DNA from: Nitrosopumilus sp.
GTDB lineage: Archaea; Thermoproteota; Nitrososphaeria; Nitrososphaerales; Nitrosopumilaceae
Reading direction: 5' to 3'
DNA: 64,000 nt
Assembly (NCBI GenBank): GCA_965197525.1
Contig: OZ240211.1
Span: forward strand, 1,408,001 to 1,472,000
Part shown: positions 13,256 to 50,386 of the stretch, piece after piece
How the letters are laid out: every line of letters begins with the position of its first letter
Position numbering within the stretch: position 1 is the stretch's first letter
The notes under the pieces: generated by a model
What the model was told of the DNA's origin: nothing
What the model saw: only the letters and a program-made list of their open reading frames with translations
Databases searched by the model: none
Program-made: the position numbers and the translations under genes

Positions 13256-13307
13256 TTTCAAAAACTAGTTTGAATGCATGTAAAAACATCCTCGTCGTAG
13301 TCTAGAT

Positions 13308-13425
13308 GATGGATCGACCCCTTGTGAAACATGTGCTTCGCGCACTTTAGTTTGAATGGGGCAATCCGAGCTGCTGCGTTCCTGTGCTTCGCGCACTGAT
13401 AGGTGATTGCAGCCTCCGATCCATC
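13308..13425 (+). ncRNA. Putative bridge RNA of IS110 copy 1 (target- and donor-binding loops)
   Basis: Outer stem GATGGATCG/CGATCCATC; two internal loops, each with hairpin GTGC-TTCGC-GCAC; loop strands match the element ends and insertion site. Confidence 0.78.
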
Positions 13426-13456
13426 AAAAACAATCCGCAAGGAGGTGATAAAAAGG

Positions 13457-14557
13457 ATGAGAAATATTGGAATAGACATTAGCAAGAGAAAATGCGTAGT
13501 ATGTGTAATGGATGACAAGGGAAGAATACTAGAGGAAACTACATATGACAATACGCTAGAAGATGCAAAAGAGTTTGCAGGCAGGATGAAAAGAGAGTAC
13601 GGCAGGAGAAGAGGACAGTGCCGTGCTGCATGCGAGACTACAGGAAACATGTGGCTCAAGACATTTGAGGCATTTGAGGAACACGACATACCAATCCAGC
13701 TTGCCAACACCTACAAGATGAAGATAATATCAGATACCGACGTCAAGACGGATCCCATCGATGCACGAAAGATTGCCAACATACTTCGTGTAGAGATGAT
13801 TCCCCAGTGTTATGTGGCGCCACCTGCGTTGCGTGATGCCAGAGAGCTGCTCAGGTACAGAATAAGCATGGTCCAGGCAAGGACTGCACTTATCAACTAT
13901 ACACACGGTCTGCTTGACAAGTACGATGTAAGACTGAACGTCTCAAACATGTACAGCAAAAAAGCCATCGGACTGCTCTCACATACAGAACTGAAAAGAC
14001 CAAACGACAACCTGATACTGAAGAACTGTGCCAAAAGAATTGCACATGTCACAGAAGAGATAACAAATGTCGAAACAGAGATAGACAAACAGGCCGCAGT
14101 AAACGATGATGCAAGACTGCTTATGAGCATGACAGGACTGGATGTATTTGCATCAATGCTTGTCGTATCAGAGATTGGGGACATATCAAGATTCAAAACC
14201 CCCGAACACTTGGTCTCATGGGCAGGCATGTGTCCCACCGTCTACCAATCAGGTGATGTAACACATCATGGCCGCATGAAAAAGGCAGCAAACGGAAGAA
14301 TAAACTGGATACTTATTCAAGCAGCAAACGTGGCAGCAAGACACGATGACAAGTTAAAGGAGTTCTATGAGAGATGCAAAAAAAGACATGGCGGCAAACA
14401 TGTGATTACAGTAACACATGTGGCAAACAAGATGATACGAATCATTTGGGCCATACTGACCTTCAGGGAACCGTACAAGTCACGCAATGTACAAAGATAT
14501 GGCAGAAAGATGAAGAGAATGAACAGTGTTCGACAGTCTATGCAGGGCACAGAATAG
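13457..14557 (+). CDS. IS110 DEDD recombinase/transposase
   Basis: GIDISKR, ACETTG, KTDPID (DEDD), GMCPTVYQSG (Tnp-domain Ser); GGAGGTG upstream of ATG 13457. Confidence 0.95.
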   Translation: MRNIGIDISKRKCVVCVMDDKGRILEETTYDNTLEDAKEFAGRMKREYGRRRGQCRAACETTGNMWLKTFEAFEEHDIPIQLANTYKMKIISDTDVKTDPIDARKIANILRVEMIPQCYVAPPALRDARELLRYRISMVQARTALINYTHGLLDKYDVRLNVSNMYSKKAIGLLSHTELKRPNDNLILKNCAKRIAHVTEEITNVETEIDKQAAVNDDARLLMSMTGLDVFASMLVVSEIGDISRFKTPEHLVSWAGMCPTVYQSGDVTHHGRMKKAANGRINWILIQAANVAARHDDKLKEFYERCKKRHGGKHVITVTHVANKMIRIIWAILTFREPYKSRNVQRYGRKMKRMNSVRQSMQGTE

Positions 14558-14688
14558 CCAGCCAGTCACACATCCGTTGCAGTTTTGTTCCTAGCGATAG
14601 CTTTAAAAATATACACGTGTATTGTAGGCGTGGATCGAAGGCCAAATGGAAACCACGCGTGGCTGTGCCCGGATGTTTTAACATAGGT

Positions 14689-16048
14689 GTTTCATAACAT
14701 GCCACAGTTCTGACCCGATTGTATAGCATCTAGCCCATACTTTCATCATACCATTGAGATCACCCTCTGAGTTATGTCTACGAACTGGTTGTAGCGCTGG
14801 ATCTTTAACGCTATCTCTTGAATAATGTTATCCATTGTTTTTGCCCTTACCGAACTTCCAAATATTCTCTTGAACGCAGAGAAGAATATCTCCACCTGCC
14901 ATCGGGAACCGTATTCCGCACGTTTTTTCCACTCGTTTTGGTTTTCCGCACGTTCCTTGATATCCATCTCATGGAATTTGGCAAGGCTTGTAGTGCCGCC
15001 ACCCAGCTGGTCAAGCGCTGCAATACCGCGTTCCCTGCTTATCCCCATTGCCTTGTATTCTGCATTGCGTCTTATCCTGATGATAGGTGTAATGCCGTAC
15101 TCTTTGCATATCTGAAAATTCTCCCTGCTGTCATATCCTGCATCTGCCTTGATCTTAATTTTAACATGATCTGGCGGTGGCCCAGTACCTGCAGCCATTA
15201 CTGTTGCGCGTCGTACATCTGGATCTATTCCCTTGTTCCTCAGTGCCTGTCTTATCAGGGGCTCGAACTGTGGGGAATCACCAATCTTTTCGTCAGTTAC
15301 CGTGAATCCAAGCACCCGCATGGTGTCCTGCTGTATCATGACACTGAGTCTTATGAAACCTGACTTGGTCTTTATCTTGTATTTGTATCGTATGTAGTCG
15401 CCTTTGGCAGACGGGGACATGCCTGTTCCATCTATGATGATCTGCAACACACTGTCTTTGCTCCTGACGGTTATGGTTCTGTCTGTAATGGATGTATCAA
15501 GACTCTTCGTTCTTCTCCACAGGGTAACGTGATCAGGTGCGTTTTCCTCACCCAGTGCAGCTATTGCCATTCCTTCCACACATCTGAATGCAATGCCCAG
15601 CTGTAGACGTATTCCGATTATGGCCATTATCAGGCACTCTGGATAGATGAACGGATGACCGTTTTTGCCTGCATTCATCCGTTTAAGTTCATCTACCATG
15701 TTGTCAGGAAGAACCAAATGTATCATCTTTCCTCGTTCCACATATCTTGCATCATTTTGCGCATGGCTCATGTGTAGCCGCGATTTTTGTTTGGTTCTGG
15801 TACCATCATGCGTCATACCCGTCTACCTCCAGAACGCAGCACATAACTAATTTCGATTAACTTGCTGGAGAAAAGAAACTCACACGTAACATTAAATTGT
15901 CTTCCTGTGAAATATGGTTGGTGCGGATATCCTTTCATTTGTTGTGATCTGAAAGGATATTACGCTCCAGCTCTTTAAATGCGAAAGTTAGTTGCAGTTA
16001 ATCTGCAACTTGAATATCTATGACACTGTTTGTGGCAGGTTATGAAAC
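14689..16048 (-). mobile_element. IS5-family (IS903-like) element
   Basis: 18-bp TIRs GTTTCATAACATGCCACA (14689-14706) and TGTGGCAGGTTATGAAAC (16031-16048), 17/18 match; 6-bp direct repeat AAACTA at 13262-67 and 16049-54 once the IS110 is removed. Confidence 0.85.
14746..15816 (-). CDS. IS5-family DDE transposase
   Basis: PDHVTLWRR, IIDGTG, ADAGYDS, YGSRWQVEIFFSAFKRIFG. Confidence 0.9.
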   Translation of the reverse strand: MTHDGTRTKQKSRLHMSHAQNDARYVERGKMIHLVLPDNMVDELKRMNAGKNGHPFIYPECLIMAIIGIRLQLGIAFRCVEGMAIAALGEENAPDHVTLWRRTKSLDTSITDRTITVRSKDSVLQIIIDGTGMSPSAKGDYIRYKYKIKTKSGFIRLSVMIQQDTMRVLGFTVTDEKIGDSPQFEPLIRQALRNKGIDPDVRRATVMAAGTGPPPDHVKIKIKADAGYDSRENFQICKEYGITPIIRIRRNAEYKAMGISRERGIAALDQLGGGTTSLAKFHEMDIKERAENQNEWKKRAEYGSRWQVEIFFSAFKRIFGSSVRAKTMDNIIQEIALKIQRYNQFVDITQRVISMV

Positions 16049-48174: not shown

Positions 48175-48837
48175 ATGTCAGTTACTCAAAACGAATATTT
48201 TATAGAACTAGCTAGTTTTTCTGATTTAGCAAGGTATGCATGTGCTTTGCAAGAATACCCTAAACGAGTCTATTCACATCAGTTCAATAATTCCCGCATT
48301 ATTTCAAGCACTTTAACTTTAGCAAACACTTTACTAGTCTTTTATACCACTCTACCAAAATTTGGCAGATATGTTTCTTACAGGATTACTGCTAAAAAAG
48401 AGATCTGTGATATAGTGGATTCTACAAAAAGTATTGCAAATTATGCTCCAATTATTCATATGGAGTCTGGCATCTCTCCACTATTACCTGCAAAATCAGA
48501 TAAGATTGCTGATAAATTCTATCCGCTTAAAGTCAAAGATTTGGGAAGTTTGGCACGATTAACATACGATCATGAATTTCCAGAAGAGCATAATCTTACA
48601 CTTTATGCGTTCCCATATGATGATTCTTGGATACTAGGTTATATCACATCTCTTGATATGGATGAGGTGTATTATAATTTCAACTATATTGAACTGTCTT
48701 CTGAACCTGCAAAAAATTTTCTCAAATATCAAGGAAATCAAGGCAAAGATCCAGAATTTTTAGATGATTTTGCTAATGGATATTCGTATCTGCCGATTAT
48801 CAAAATAAAAGACGAGCATAGCATCTTTGGATTCTAA
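48175..48837 (+). CDS. Hypothetical protein
   Basis: 220-aa ORF with host-like composition; internal repeat DLARY / SLARL. Confidence 0.75.
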   Translation: MSVTQNEYFIELASFSDLARYACALQEYPKRVYSHQFNNSRIISSTLTLANTLLVFYTTLPKFGRYVSYRITAKKEICDIVDSTKSIANYAPIIHMESGISPLLPAKSDKIADKFYPLKVKDLGSLARLTYDHEFPEEHNLTLYAFPYDDSWILGYITSLDMDEVYYNFNYIELSSEPAKNFLKYQGNQGKDPEFLDDFANGYSYLPIIKIKDEHSIFGF

Positions 48838-48887
48838 GATTGAACGTATGTGAACACATGTAACCACCCTCCTCCTAGTATCTATGT

Positions 48888-49023
48888 GATAGGCTGACCC
48901 CTAAATCGACATGGGCTTCGCGCCCTTGTGCATGAATGGGGGGGGGGGGGAGAGGAGGAGGATCCGAGCTGCTGTGTTCCTAGGCTTCGCGCCCTGATAG
49001 GTAATTGCAGCTTCCGGTCTGTC
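48888..49023 (+). ncRNA. Putative bridge RNA of IS110 copy 2
   Basis: Same scaffold as 13308-13425 with compensatory changes (GGGC-TTCGC-GCCC; outer stem GATAGGCTG/CGGTCTGTC); G13 plus purine run between the loops. Confidence 0.72.
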
Positions 49024-49055
49024 AGATGAATCCCAAAGGAGGTGAAAATAAAGGA

Positions 49056-50129
49056 TTGACAATAATAGGAACGAAAAAGATAGGAACGAAAAGTGTAGGA
49101 ATAGACATCGGTAAGAGGAGATGTATAGTGTGTATTATGAATGAAGATGGCGCCGTAATGGAGAGAACAGAATATGATAACACGTTTGAAGATGCTACAA
49201 AATTTGCTAAAAAGATAAAACAAGAATATGGAGAGTGCAAAGCTGCATGTGAAACAACCGGTAACATGTGGATAAAAACATTTGAGGCGTTTGAGAGTCA
49301 GAACATACCAATCAAACTAACAAACACATTCAAGATGAAGATAATATCAGAGACTAGTGTAAAGACTGATATTATTGATGCACGCAAGATTGCCGATTTG
49401 GTAAGAGTTGACATGATACCAAGATGCTATGTTGCGCCTGCTGACATACGAGATAACAGACAGCTATTAAGGCACAGGATTAGTCTGGTCCAAGACAGAA
49501 CAAAGGTGATTAATCATGTTCGGAATCTGCTTGACAAGTATGATATCAAAATAGGTGGATCAGAAATACACTCAAAAAAGTCATTGAAACAACTTGCAGA
49601 CACCAATCTTCGTGGAGATAACGATCAGTTCATGCTAAGACAATGCGTCAGACAGATACAGTATCTGAATGATGAGATAGAACATACAGAAGAAAAGATA
49701 GCACAACAAGCTTCAAAAAATGACTATGCACAGATTCTACCTAGCATGACAGGAATAGAGATATTTTCAGCCATGCTTATCGCATCAGAGATTGGAGATA
49801 TCTCAAGATTCAACACTGCAAAACAGCTAGTGTCATGGGCAGGCATGTGTCCACGAGTGTACCAATCAGGTAATACGACACATCATGGAAGAATAAAAAA
49901 AGATTCAAACAGACGAGTCAACTGGATAATGATTCAGGATGCCAACACTGCAGTACGTCATGATGGTATAATGAAGAGATTTTACGAGCAGGTCAAACAA
50001 AGACATGGCGGCAATCATCCAATTGCAATAACACATGTTGCAAACAAGATGATTACGATAATCTGGAATATGTTGACTGCCATAACCACGTACTCTACCA
50101 AAAGTAACGATGTATCAAAGAGAGCTTAA
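49056..50129 (+). CDS. IS110 DEDD recombinase/transposase (C-terminus probably frameshifted)
   Basis: GIDIGKR, ACETTG, KTDIID, GMCPRVYQSG; TTG start after GGAGGTG; the alternative frame near 50100 gives MYQRELKKI, resembling copy 1 YGRKMKRM. Confidence 0.92.
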   Translation: MTIIGTKKIGTKSVGIDIGKRRCIVCIMNEDGAVMERTEYDNTFEDATKFAKKIKQEYGECKAACETTGNMWIKTFEAFESQNIPIKLTNTFKMKIISETSVKTDIIDARKIADLVRVDMIPRCYVAPADIRDNRQLLRHRISLVQDRTKVINHVRNLLDKYDIKIGGSEIHSKKSLKQLADTNLRGDNDQFMLRQCVRQIQYLNDEIEHTEEKIAQQASKNDYAQILPSMTGIEIFSAMLIASEIGDISRFNTAKQLVSWAGMCPRVYQSGNTTHHGRIKKDSNRRVNWIMIQDANTAVRHDGIMKRFYEQVKQRHGGNHPIAITHVANKMITIIWNMLTAITTYSTKSNDVSKRA

Positions 50130-50294
50130 AAAGATCAGTGACGCACAATGATGTAAGACTGGAATGCAATTGAGACAGACATAATGCTGTGAGCAATGGA
50201 TAGTTATCCACACAGGTGTTCACGTCATCCCTTAATCCGTGCCTAACTACAATCCACATCGACCTATCCATAAGCACGAATCAAGAGGGATGTG

Positions 50295-50386
50295 GTATGC
50301 ACTCAGGTCTCATTCGTTTATAGGTGTGATTTTACAGGATGCTACGTTTTTTTGTGCCTACGCAGACACCTGACCTGAGTGCATAC
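50295..50386. mobile_element. 92-bp MITE
   Basis: Perfect 15-bp TIRs GTATGCACTCAGGTC / GACCTGAGTGCATAC; 8-bp TSD GGGATGTG (50287-94, 50387-94); empty-site homolog at 37041-37060. Confidence 0.85.

What the first reader, a model, noticed from the sequence alone, without database searches (positions are those of the whole stretch)
48846..50219. Second IS110: same RNA scaffold with compensatory changes, retuned donor guide, different target guides
Seen: hairpin GTGC/GCAC becomes GGGC/GCCC; the outer stem is rewritten yet fully paired with G:U; stems CCCC/GGGG and GCTGC/GCAGC are kept. The donor guide changes to TGTGTTC (48973-79) and the left end changes with it (GAACACA, 48852-58, 7/7). ATAGGT (48997-49002) fits the right end ACAGGT (50212-17) with one wobble. 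The target guides are wholly different (TAAATCGAC, TTGTGCATG). This is a natural two-allele demonstration of a fixed scaffold with variable guides. Caveat: these target guides fit the present site poorly (GACGTGAAC, about 4/9). That site is again an IS terminal repeat entered at GT. The guide's complement GTCGATTTA resembles GTCATTTA in the IS66-type left IR only with a bulge. A G13 run lies between the loops.
Basis: partly seen in the sequence, partly recalled or inferred. Interest (0 to 1): 0.8.

Follow-up and report, generated by a model that had tools for sequence, protein, structure and literature searches.

The report
Archaeal IS110 with mismatched bridge RNA
This is an intact IS110-type jumping gene of an ammonia-oxidising archaeon that carries the known kind of "bridge RNA"; the RNA's donor arms match the element's own ends, but its target arms do not match the place where it now sits.

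Summary
Window 48853-50218 is a 1366-bp IS110-group element ("B"). It has a DEDD/Ser recombinase and a structured RNA in its 203-nt left end.

- **Scaffold.** An outer stem encloses a target loop and a donor loop, each capped by a similar hairpin. B shares this with four "A" copies in the same genome and with 29 other distinct relatives in Nitrosopumilaceae. Over 34 sequences, 95.3% of cells pair, 13 of 26 pairs show compensatory changes, and 0 of 500 shuffles reach the observed values.
- **Donor arms.** They fit B's ends: 7/7 at the left end, and 5 Watson-Crick pairs plus 1 G:U of 7 at the right end. They covary with the ends across the family.
- **Target arms.** They are at non-cognate level for B's site (2/7 and 3/8). 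Family cognates average 4.4/7 and 4.4/8; non-cognates average 1.9 and 2.3.
- **The site.** It is the terminal TG of an ~80-bp MITE. Two decayed B-type left ends elsewhere in the genome carry 5' target arms that fit this MITE end (8 and 7 of 10). B's arm differs from one of them by two bases. So B sits in its lineage's usual target, and its present guide has diverged or was never the one used.
- **Polarity.** Arm-to-end polarity is flipped relative to IS621.
- **G-run.** The G13 run is specific to the B lineage and may vary in length.

This is a known kind of system, with variant details.

The parts
48851..48852 (+). Left copy of the TG core, the last two bases of the left flank
   Evidence: TG precedes the left end in all 29 family elements tabulated. 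The same TG follows the right end at 50217-18.
48853..49055 (+). Non-coding left end (203 nt) that holds the bridge-RNA gene. It begins AACACATG.
   Evidence: nhmmer and alignment with 33 relatives. No Rfam family matches.
48852..48858 (+). Donor half-site at the left end (G+AACACA), read by the 5' arm of the donor loop
   Evidence: 7/7 Watson-Crick pairs with 48973-79. In the family, the left end AnnCA covaries with the arm TGnnT in four states.
48889..48896 (+). Outer stem P1, 5' strand. It pairs with 49015-49022.
   Evidence: RNAalifold. Seven of 8 pairs show double changes in the family and 92.9% of cells pair.
48898..48941 (+). Target-binding loop module: stem CCCC 48898-901 / GGGG 48938-41; 5' arm 48902-11 (TAAATCGACA); cap 48913-25; 3' arm 48926-34 (TTGTGCATG)
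   Evidence: In the family, the 5' arm is antisense to core plus right flank and the 3' arm is sense to left flank plus core. For B the fit is 3/8 and 2/7.
48938..48961 (+). G13 run (48938-50) and the purine-rich insert GAGAGGAGGAGG (48950-61) between the two loop modules. Only the B lineage has it.
   Evidence: It is a gap in all 33 other sequences. The relic at G000 313 kb has G11. A contig from a second sample reads two G fewer, at depth 3.4. In B's minimum-energy fold, GGAGGAGG pairs with CCUCCUCC 48868-75.
48967..49012 (+). Donor-binding loop module: stem AGCTGC 48967-72 / GCAGCT 49007-12; 5' arm TGTGTTC 48973-79; cap 48982-94; 3' arm TGATAGGTA 48995-49003
   Evidence: The 3' arm is sense to the right end plus core. 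ATAGGTG and ATAGATG covary between arm and right end in the family.
49015..49022 (+). Outer stem P1, 3' strand
49036..49045 (+). Ribosome-binding site AAGGAGGTGA, nearly invariant in the family
   Evidence: Alignment columns 226-235.
49056..50129 (+). Recombinase gene, with a TTG start in the place where relatives have ATG. It holds an in-frame 15-nt tandem duplication near the 5' end.
   Evidence: Pfam PF01548 (1.9e-24) and PF02371 (5.5e-23). 57% identity to A. D33, E83, D121, D124 and S288 align with IS621 positions 11, 60, 102, 105 and 241.
50130..50218 (+). Right end. The last bases ACAGG plus core TG (50212-18) form the donor half-site read by the 3' arm of the donor loop.
   Evidence: Right-end profile match. 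Element length is 1366.
50217..50296 (+). MITE (~80 bp; inverted ends TGTTCACGTCATCCC... / ...GGGGACGTGAAC in intact copies). Its terminal TG is the insertion point.
   Evidence: About 9 other copies have different left flanks. Other copies' contigs diverge exactly at 50217 (table 7).

Best explanation
B is an intact insertion sequence of the IS110 group in a Nitrosopumilaceae archaeon.

**RNA and recombinase.** The left end encodes, on the recombinase strand, a bridge RNA of about 135 nt. An 8-bp outer stem encloses two stem / internal-loop / hairpin modules. By analogy with IS621, the recombinase binds this RNA.

**Donor loop.** It pairs with the joined ends of the excised element. [quoted passage not shown] **Target loop.** It pairs with the target. 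[quoted passage not shown] Exchange happens at a TG core. Each arm ends at the core with its 3' end, as in IS621. However, the arms that read 'left' halves in IS621 read 'right' halves here. The RNA-recombinase cassette is therefore inverted relative to the crossover polarity.

**How B reached its site (inferred).** B's donor arms are cognate and its target arms are not. B sits at the terminal TG of a MITE, and that end is the habitual target of the B lineage. Most likely B arrived with a target loop whose 5' arm matched this end. That loop was either its own ancestral arm, two substitutions away from today's, or the RNA of a sibling copy acting in trans. The present target loop has since drifted or been exchanged.

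**Shown:** family membership, scaffold, donor pairing, mismatch with the site, fit of sibling arms.
**Inferred:** transcription, strand, RNA ends, RNA-protein binding, the history.
For: - **Recombinase.** Domains and catalytic residues are present.
- **Scaffold.** 34 distinct sequences, 95.3% of cells paired, 13 pairs and 74 cells with double changes, 0/500 shuffles, slid controls 29-52%. A1's minimum-energy fold equals the consensus.
- **Target arms in A.** A copies carry three target-arm pairs that fit their own flanks. One example is A2: 5' arm against right flank, 9/9.
- **Family statistics.** Cognate fit is 4.36/7 and 4.36/8 against non-cognate 1.88 and 2.26. B scores 2/7 and 3/8.
- **Donor covariation** across the family.
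- **Sense strand.** G:U against A.C is 43:23 in stems and 20:8 in guide:DNA duplexes. The loop order target-then-donor and arm 3' ends at the core match IS621.
- **Sibling relics.** Counting the core, the 5' arm at G000 352 kb gives 8 Watson-Crick pairs plus 1 G:U of 10 with B's site. The arm at 313 kb gives 7+1. B's own gives 5+1. Over the 8 non-core bases, the 352-kb arm scores 6 Watson-Crick pairs; the best of the 22 distinct 5' arms of the tabulated elements scores 4.
- **Divergence.** B and the 313-kb relic are 88% identical overall. Two changes in a 10-nt arm are therefore no more than background divergence.
- **In trans.** A bridge RNA supplied in trans works for IS621 (PMC11208160, section 8).
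Against: - No RNA data are available. The only RNA run held short contigs 90-95% alike to the recombinase gene, and contigs give no strand or ends.
- B's minimum-energy fold does not give the consensus. The purine-rich insert pairs with the C-rich leader, and the z-score is 0.31. The RNA may therefore be impaired.
- The left half of the site fits no known B-type arm. The 3' target arm is deleted in the 352-kb relic, and the 313-kb arm scores 2/7.
- MITE left flanks are not conserved, so a full two-arm match to MITE ends may never have existed.
- Other family elements also sit at poorly fitting sites. L064 scores 0/8 on the right and L067 scores 2/7 on the left.
- The history cannot be resolved from one genome.
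Confidence: 0.6

Rival explanations
1. Pure trans-mobilisation. B never carried a MITE-directed target loop. A sibling B-type element with the same donor arms supplied the bridge RNA that placed B at the MITE end. B's own loop is aimed at some other sequence.
For: The 352-kb relic has the best-fitting 5' arm (8+1 of 10) and a compatible left end and 3' donor arm. Trans bridge RNA is functional for IS621 (PMC11208160). The genome held at least three B-type target loops.
Against: B's 5' arm is 8/10 identical to the 313-kb relic's MITE-directed arm, which points to common descent rather than a different aim. No good cognate site for B's arms exists in the genome; the best non-self score is 11 of 13. 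Among 300 family genomes, matches are at chance level.
Confidence: 0.25
2. Off-target or 'half-match' insertion by B's present RNA. Recombination needed only the TG core plus a partial match of one arm, including donor-like half-sites.
For: Half-site matches suffice for IS621 insertion in vitro. They explain 47% of non-target insertion reads (preprint 10.64898/2026.08.31.748434). By hand count, the site is weakly donor-like: GTATGTG against the arm ATAGGTA is 4/7, and G+TTCACG against the arm UGUGUUC gives 5/7 with a wobble.
Against: No arm gives a full half-match. The site is exactly the one that sibling arms specify, which would be a coincidence under random off-targeting.
Confidence: 0.1
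3. The functional RNA is transcribed antisense to the recombinase. Two earlier first-reader notes on the A3 and A4 copies proposed this, so that 5' arms are identical to left-hand DNA as in IS621.
For: The stems are near-palindromic in pairing, so the reverse strand folds similarly. 9 of 26 pairs have some A.C that would become G:U.
Against: The sense strand has about twice as many G:U as A.C in stems (43:23) and in guide:DNA duplexes (20:8). On the antisense strand the arms would meet the core with their 5' ends and the donor loop would come first. Both are opposite to IS621.
Confidence: 0.05

Closest known systems
IS621 (E. coli) bridge recombinase and bridge RNA (Durrant et al. 2024, PMC11208160; Hiraizumi et al. 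2024, PMC11208158)
   Same: DEDD plus Ser recombinase, 25% identity with catalytic residues aligned. The RNA lies in the left end upstream of the gene. The target loop comes first and the donor loop second. Each loop is split by a hairpin into two arms that pair with opposite strands and meet a 2-nt core with their 3' ends. The core is present on both sides of the insertion. One donor arm has a natural mismatch at the last core base: ACAGTATCA against ACAGTATCT in IS621, ATAGGTA against ACAGGTG in B.
   Different: The core is TG, not CT. The 5' arms read the right flank and the left end here, but the left flank and the right end in IS621. Here both modules lie inside a common covarying 8-bp outer stem, and their caps are often identical. 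No Rfam model matches. The host is an archaeon.
IS1111-group elements (IS4321/IS5075; seekRNA elements)
   Same: Same recombinase family. They characteristically insert into the terminal inverted repeats of other transposons, as cited in PMC11208160 (refs 10, 24). A does this with an IS4/IS5-type end and B with a MITE end.
   Different: In IS1111 elements the RNA lies in a long right end, and they have 7-17 bp subterminal inverted repeats (PMC11208160). Here the left end is long (203 nt), the right end is 89 nt, and the RNA is upstream of the gene.
A-type copies in the same genome (window 13273-14689 and three others)
   Same: Same scaffold, same TG core, same right-end motif. The recombinase is 57% identical.
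   Different: A has four intact copies with cognate target arms and many unoccupied matching sites. B is single, has non-cognate arms, and carries the G-run insert.

Membership tests
IS110 family (IS110 group) insertion sequence | N-terminal RuvC-like DEDD domain with the four acidic residues | tested here: met
   PF01548, E 1.9e-24. D33, E83, D121 and D124 align with IS621 positions 11, 60, 102 and 105. That these are the catalytic positions in IS621 is from my own knowledge.
IS110 family (IS110 group) insertion sequence | C-terminal Tnp domain with the conserved serine | tested here: met
   PF02371, E 5.5e-23. YQSG S288 aligns with YESG S241 of IS621.
IS110 family (IS110 group) insertion sequence | No long terminal inverted repeats; a short core repeated on both sides; left end longer than right end | tested here: met
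   TG at 48851-52 and 50217-18. Left end 203 nt, right end 89 nt including the core.
Bridge-RNA-guided recombination system | Conserved structured RNA with two internal loops in the non-coding end | tested here: met
   Five helices, 95.3% paired, 13 compensatory pairs, 0/500 shuffles.
Bridge-RNA-guided recombination system | Donor-loop arms complementary to the element's own two ends | tested here: met
   7/7 at the left end. 5 Watson-Crick pairs plus 1 G:U of 7 at the right end. Covariation in the family.
Bridge-RNA-guided recombination system | Target-loop arms complementary to the occupied site | tested here: not met
   B scores 2/7 on the left and 3/8 on the right, which is non-cognate level. 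The feature is met for A1-A4 and most relatives.
Bridge-RNA-guided recombination system | The RNA is expressed and bound by the recombinase | not testable with these tools
   Only contigs of public runs were available. They give no strand or ends.
IS621-type layout | The 5' arm of each loop is sense to the left half (left flank; right end of the element) | tested here: not met
   Here the 5' arms are antisense to the right flank and the left end. The IS621 layout was verified on a real copy.
IS1111 group | RNA in a long right end and subterminal inverted repeats of 7-17 bp | tested here: not met
   The RNA is in the left end and the right end is only 89 nt. The terminal similarity seen by eye is short (GTGAACAC at both junctions). 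No repeat search was run.

The most novel reading that the evidence does not exclude
The B lineage may show a natural guide-sharing or guide-turnover network. Sibling IS110 copies with identical donor arms would mobilise one another through different target loops, so a copy's own target loop need not match its site.

In addition, the slippage-prone G11-G13 run and the GA-rich insert between the loops could act as a length-variable switch. The RNA would toggle between the active three-way fold and an inactive fold paired to the C-rich leader.

Together with the flipped arm polarity, this would make the clade a mechanistically distinct, naturally regulated bridge system in archaea.
Probability: 0.15. 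Interest if true: 0.7.

Novelty: new variant of a known kind. Interest (0 to 1): 0.45.

Why it matters
Bridge recombinases are being developed as programmable genome-writing tools, and almost all mechanistic work rests on IS621 and close bacterial relatives. This archaeal clade offers several things:

- **A compact, well-supported alternative scaffold.** A shared outer stem encloses both loops, the caps are often identical, and the core is TG.
- **A different gene orientation.** The cassette is inverted relative to the crossover polarity. This shows that the orientation is not fixed by the mechanism.
- **A natural series of reprogrammed target loops within one genome.**
- **An element whose guide does not fit its site.** This bears on open questions: how often elements are guided in trans, how guides turn over, and how much one-arm recognition suffices in nature.

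None of this overturns the known model. It extends the model to archaea and supplies testable natural variants.

Tried and rejected
- **Rfam.** No family matched at gathering thresholds over the whole window or at E up to 10 over 48800-49100.
- **Close B relatives.** A protein-pattern scan of metagenome contigs found none. A 17-mer of the B-specific stem found 14 contigs, none RNA-like. In 300 family genomes, the B-specific first half matched only distant relatives at 71-79% identity.
- **Cognate site for B's present arms.**
  - The exact 17-mer with up to 4 mismatches gave a best of 3 mismatches.
  - A wobble-aware scan gave a best non-self score of 11 of 13. Three of these hits lie in the end of a ~1.3-kb TnpB element (GTACC-TG-TTGATTTA). 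This is a lead only.
  - The 15-mer with up to 1 mismatch in 300 family genomes gave 13 hits against 21 for the reversed control, which is chance level.
The match to GTTCACGTCATTTA is real: 12/15 with one gap, three copies. It needs a CG core and a bulge, so I rate it suggestive at most.
- **Shifting B's left boundary.** Moving it to the upstream look-alike TG|AACGTATG does not rescue the fit; it stays at 4/9 (hand count).
- **Reads.**
  - The second sample (X3) gave no cover of the left flank, so neither an empty site nor another location could be shown.
  - The sponge metatranscriptome (X12) held only two short contigs 90-95% alike to the recombinase gene. This does not show transcription of this element.
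- **Not run.** Structure or complex prediction, because the domain and residue evidence sufficed. A covariance-model search, because nhmmer already recovered all copies.

Full report
**What is there**

The window lies at G000:C1:1408001-1472000 of a complete 2.21-Mb genome. Relatives found by protein and DNA searches are all Nitrosopumilaceae. The window is 38.8% G+C.

Positions 48853-50218 form a 1366-bp element. Its ORF carries Pfam DEDD_Tnp_IS110 (1.9e-24) and Transposase_20 (5.5e-23). The ORF aligns with the IS621 recombinase at 25% identity. The four acidic residues and the serine fall in the same columns.

The likely start is TTG 49056, eleven bases after a near-invariant AAGGAGGTGA. Relatives have ATG there, or TTG in L045, L048 and L062.

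Its protein is 57% identical to B's. The genome has four intact A copies, one B, and at least nine decayed left ends of both types.

**The observation**

Two small corrections apply:

- B's donor-loop cap starts with an A.C (AGGC/GCCC).
- The base after ATAGGT in the 3' donor arm is A, where the core has G.

A real IS621 copy shows the same kind of last-core-base mismatch: ACAGTATCA in the RNA against ACAGTATCT at the right end.

**Is the scaffold real?**

I collected left ends from the genome, from one-genome-per-species contigs and from 300 family genomes. Of 301 genomes searched, 19 have a match.

I aligned 34 distinct sequences. RNAalifold returns an outer stem that encloses a target module and a donor module.

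Counting my 26-pair version of that structure:

| Measure | Result |
|---|---|
| Cells forming standard pairs | 95.3% |
| Pairs with changes on both sides | 13 |
| Cells with changes on both sides | 74 |
| Shuffles reaching any observed measure | 0 of 500 |
| Pairing when 3' partners are slid by 1-3 columns | 29-52% |

The outer stem alone has 7 of 8 pairs with double changes. The caps occur as GGGC/GCCC, GUGC/GCAC, GCAC/GUGC, GAUC/GAUC, GGUC/GACC and others. A1's single-sequence minimum-energy fold reproduces the consensus.

**Are the ends right, and do the donor arms read them?**

The four A copies fix A's ends to the base. In 29 tabulated elements the left end starts A-A/T-n-n-C/T-A/G-T-G directly after TG.

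B's right boundary coincides with the first base of a repeated ~80-bp MITE. Other MITE copies' contigs diverge exactly at 50217.

Across the family, the 5' donor arm TG-nn-T tracks the left end A-nn-CA in four states:

| 5' donor arm | Left end |
|---|---|
| TGTGT | ACACA |
| TGTAT | ATACA |
| TGTCT | AGACA |
| TGCGT | ATGCA (one G:U) |

The 3' donor arm tracks the right end in two states, ATAGGTG and ATAGATG. B's "retuned" arm is thus one of several natural states.

**Target arms and polarity**

In A copies the 5' arm of the first loop is antisense to core plus right flank. The 3' arm is sense to left flank plus core:

- A2: 9/9 on the right; 7/9 plus two U:G on the left.
- A1: 9 Watson-Crick pairs plus one G:T of 10 with the core on the right.

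Three different arm pairs occur among the four copies, each fitting its own site.

Over the family:

| Pairing | Left (of 7) | Right (of 8) |
|---|---|---|
| Cognate mean | 4.36 | 4.36 |
| Non-cognate mean | 1.88 | 2.26 |
| B | 2 | 3 |

I fetched a real IS621 copy. There the 5' arm of the first loop, ATCGGGCCT, is sense to the left flank ATCAGGCCT. The 5' arm of the second loop is sense to the right end.

In both systems each arm meets the core with its 3' end, and the two arms take opposite strands. The geometry is therefore the same, but in the archaeal clade the RNA-recombinase cassette is inverted relative to it.

Two earlier first-reader notes proposed an antisense RNA instead. I rate this unlikely for three reasons:

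- G:U outnumbers A.C 43:23 in stems and 20:8 in guide:DNA duplexes.
- The antisense RNA would meet the core with arm 5' ends.
- The antisense RNA would have the donor loop first.

Only RNA data can settle it.

**Why does B not fit its site?**

The site is ...ACGTATG-TG-[B]-TG-TTCACGTCATCCC. The TG and what follows are the end of the MITE. MITE left flanks are not conserved.

Two decayed B-type left ends survive. They are 84-88% identical to B.

- **The relic at 352 kb.** It has lost the segment between the two identical caps and is cut by an IS630-type element.
- **The relic at 313 kb.** It is truncated after a G11 run.

Fit of the 5' target arms to B's site, counting the core:

| Copy | 5' target arm | Watson-Crick + G:U of 10 |
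|---|---|---|
| 352-kb relic | TGCGTGAACA | 8 + 1 |
| 313-kb relic | TACATGGACA | 7 + 1 (8 + 1 on the common TTCATGTC variant) |
| B | TAAATCGACA | 5 + 1 |

The arms of the other tabulated family elements (22 distinct) give at most 4 of 8 outside the core.

So the MITE end is the lineage's usual target, and B sits in it. B's arm differs from the 313-kb arm at two positions. That is no more than the 12% background divergence between these copies.

The simplest history has B arriving with a MITE-directed arm, its own or a sibling's in trans, and the present loop having changed since. Trans RNA works for IS621 (PMC11208160). One-arm "half-match" insertion is reported for IS621 (preprint 10.64898/2026.08.31.748434). 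That would also explain how ends with unconserved left flanks can be targets at all.

I could not separate these histories. No other B copy exists in the collections searched.

No convincing cognate site for the present arms was found in the genome or in 300 relatives. Two leads remain:

- The end of a multi-copy TnpB element, GTACC-TG-TTGATTTA, in three copies.

**The G-run**

All 33 other sequences have GGGG followed by a 5-6-nt linker. B has G13 plus GAGAGGAGGAGG, and the 313-kb relic has G11.

Contigs of the likely source sample read G13 at depth about 25. One contig of a second sample reads two G fewer at depth 3.4, which is weak evidence of length variation.

In B's minimum-energy fold, GGAGGAGG pairs with CCUCCUCC of the leader and displaces the outer stem and target stem. 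The fold is no better than shuffles (z 0.31). Whether the leader is transcribed at all is unknown.

**Verdict**

This is a correct and careful observation of a known kind of system, an IS110 bridge RNA, in an archaeal clade with variant architecture and polarity.

The claimed "two-allele demonstration" holds and is superseded by a 34-allele one. The interesting residue is the non-cognate target loop of an otherwise intact element and the lineage-specific G-run.

Noticed in passing
window 13273-14689 (A1); G000:C1 1599.3-1600.7 kb (A2), 712.2-713.6 kb (A3), 1995.7-1997.2 kb (A4): Four near-identical A-type copies carry three different target-arm pairs: TTGTGAAACA/TTTAGTTTG, TTGGGAAACA/TTAACTTTG and TTAGGAAACA/TTAACTTTG. 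Each fits its own flanks. The genome holds many unoccupied matching sites at the ends of other insertion sequences.
   Followed up: yes
L087 (G000:C1:352000-352700, minus strand) and L038:1358-1491: Two independent decayed copies, in different genomes, have lost exactly the segment between the two identical loop caps. What remains is one hybrid loop: the 5' target arm plus the 3' donor arm. As written, that loop would match a right-end/flank junction. It is probably recurrent deletion between 13-15-bp direct repeats, but it is the layout one would want for recognising an inserted copy.
   Followed up: partly
G000:C1 2186896, 1712328, 161843, 2177474, 1812662, 2168566, 474713: Seven further decayed A-like left ends (bridge-RNA genes without an intact recombinase). 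Several have yet other target arms. One (1812 kb) still matches its left flank 9/9.
   Followed up: partly
window 50217-50296; also window 29043 and 62995: An ~80-bp MITE family, about 9 copies with ends TGTTCAYGTCATCCC. A larger element in three copies starts GTTCACGTCATTTAGG and shares the terminal repeat. It is probably the autonomous partner.
   Followed up: partly
G000:C1:864.6-866.4 kb (L016); also 390.7 kb and 2084.4 kb: A third, distant IS110-family gene (419 aa, 33% identity). Its downstream end ...GATAATAGGTG abuts the same MITE end at the same TG. Two further places hold the same end-plus-MITE junction. No A/B-type RNA lies upstream of this gene, and its ~300-nt downstream non-coding end was not analysed.
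   Followed up: no
L086 (G000:C1:427900-429450) and about 30-50 other places: A ~1.3-kb element encoding a TnpB-like protein (Cas12f1-like TNB and RuvC domains) is the most abundant repeat found. Three copies are at 97-100% identity and about 30 at ~82%.
   Followed up: partly
window 49060-49105: An in-frame 15-nt tandem duplication (ATAGGAACGAAAAAG / ATAGGAACGAAAAGT) adds five residues (IGTKK/IGTKS) just before the first catalytic aspartate of B's recombinase.
   Followed up: no
run X3, loose end at window 48962: A second sample of the same study holds an A-type target loop with a 3' arm, TTCGAATTG, that is not present in this genome. Guide sets therefore differ between closely related populations.
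   Followed up: no
window 48840-48860: The left flank TGAACGTATG directly repeats the pattern of the left end TGAACACATG (8/10). It could be a remnant of an earlier end or chance. It does not improve the guide fit.
   Followed up: partly
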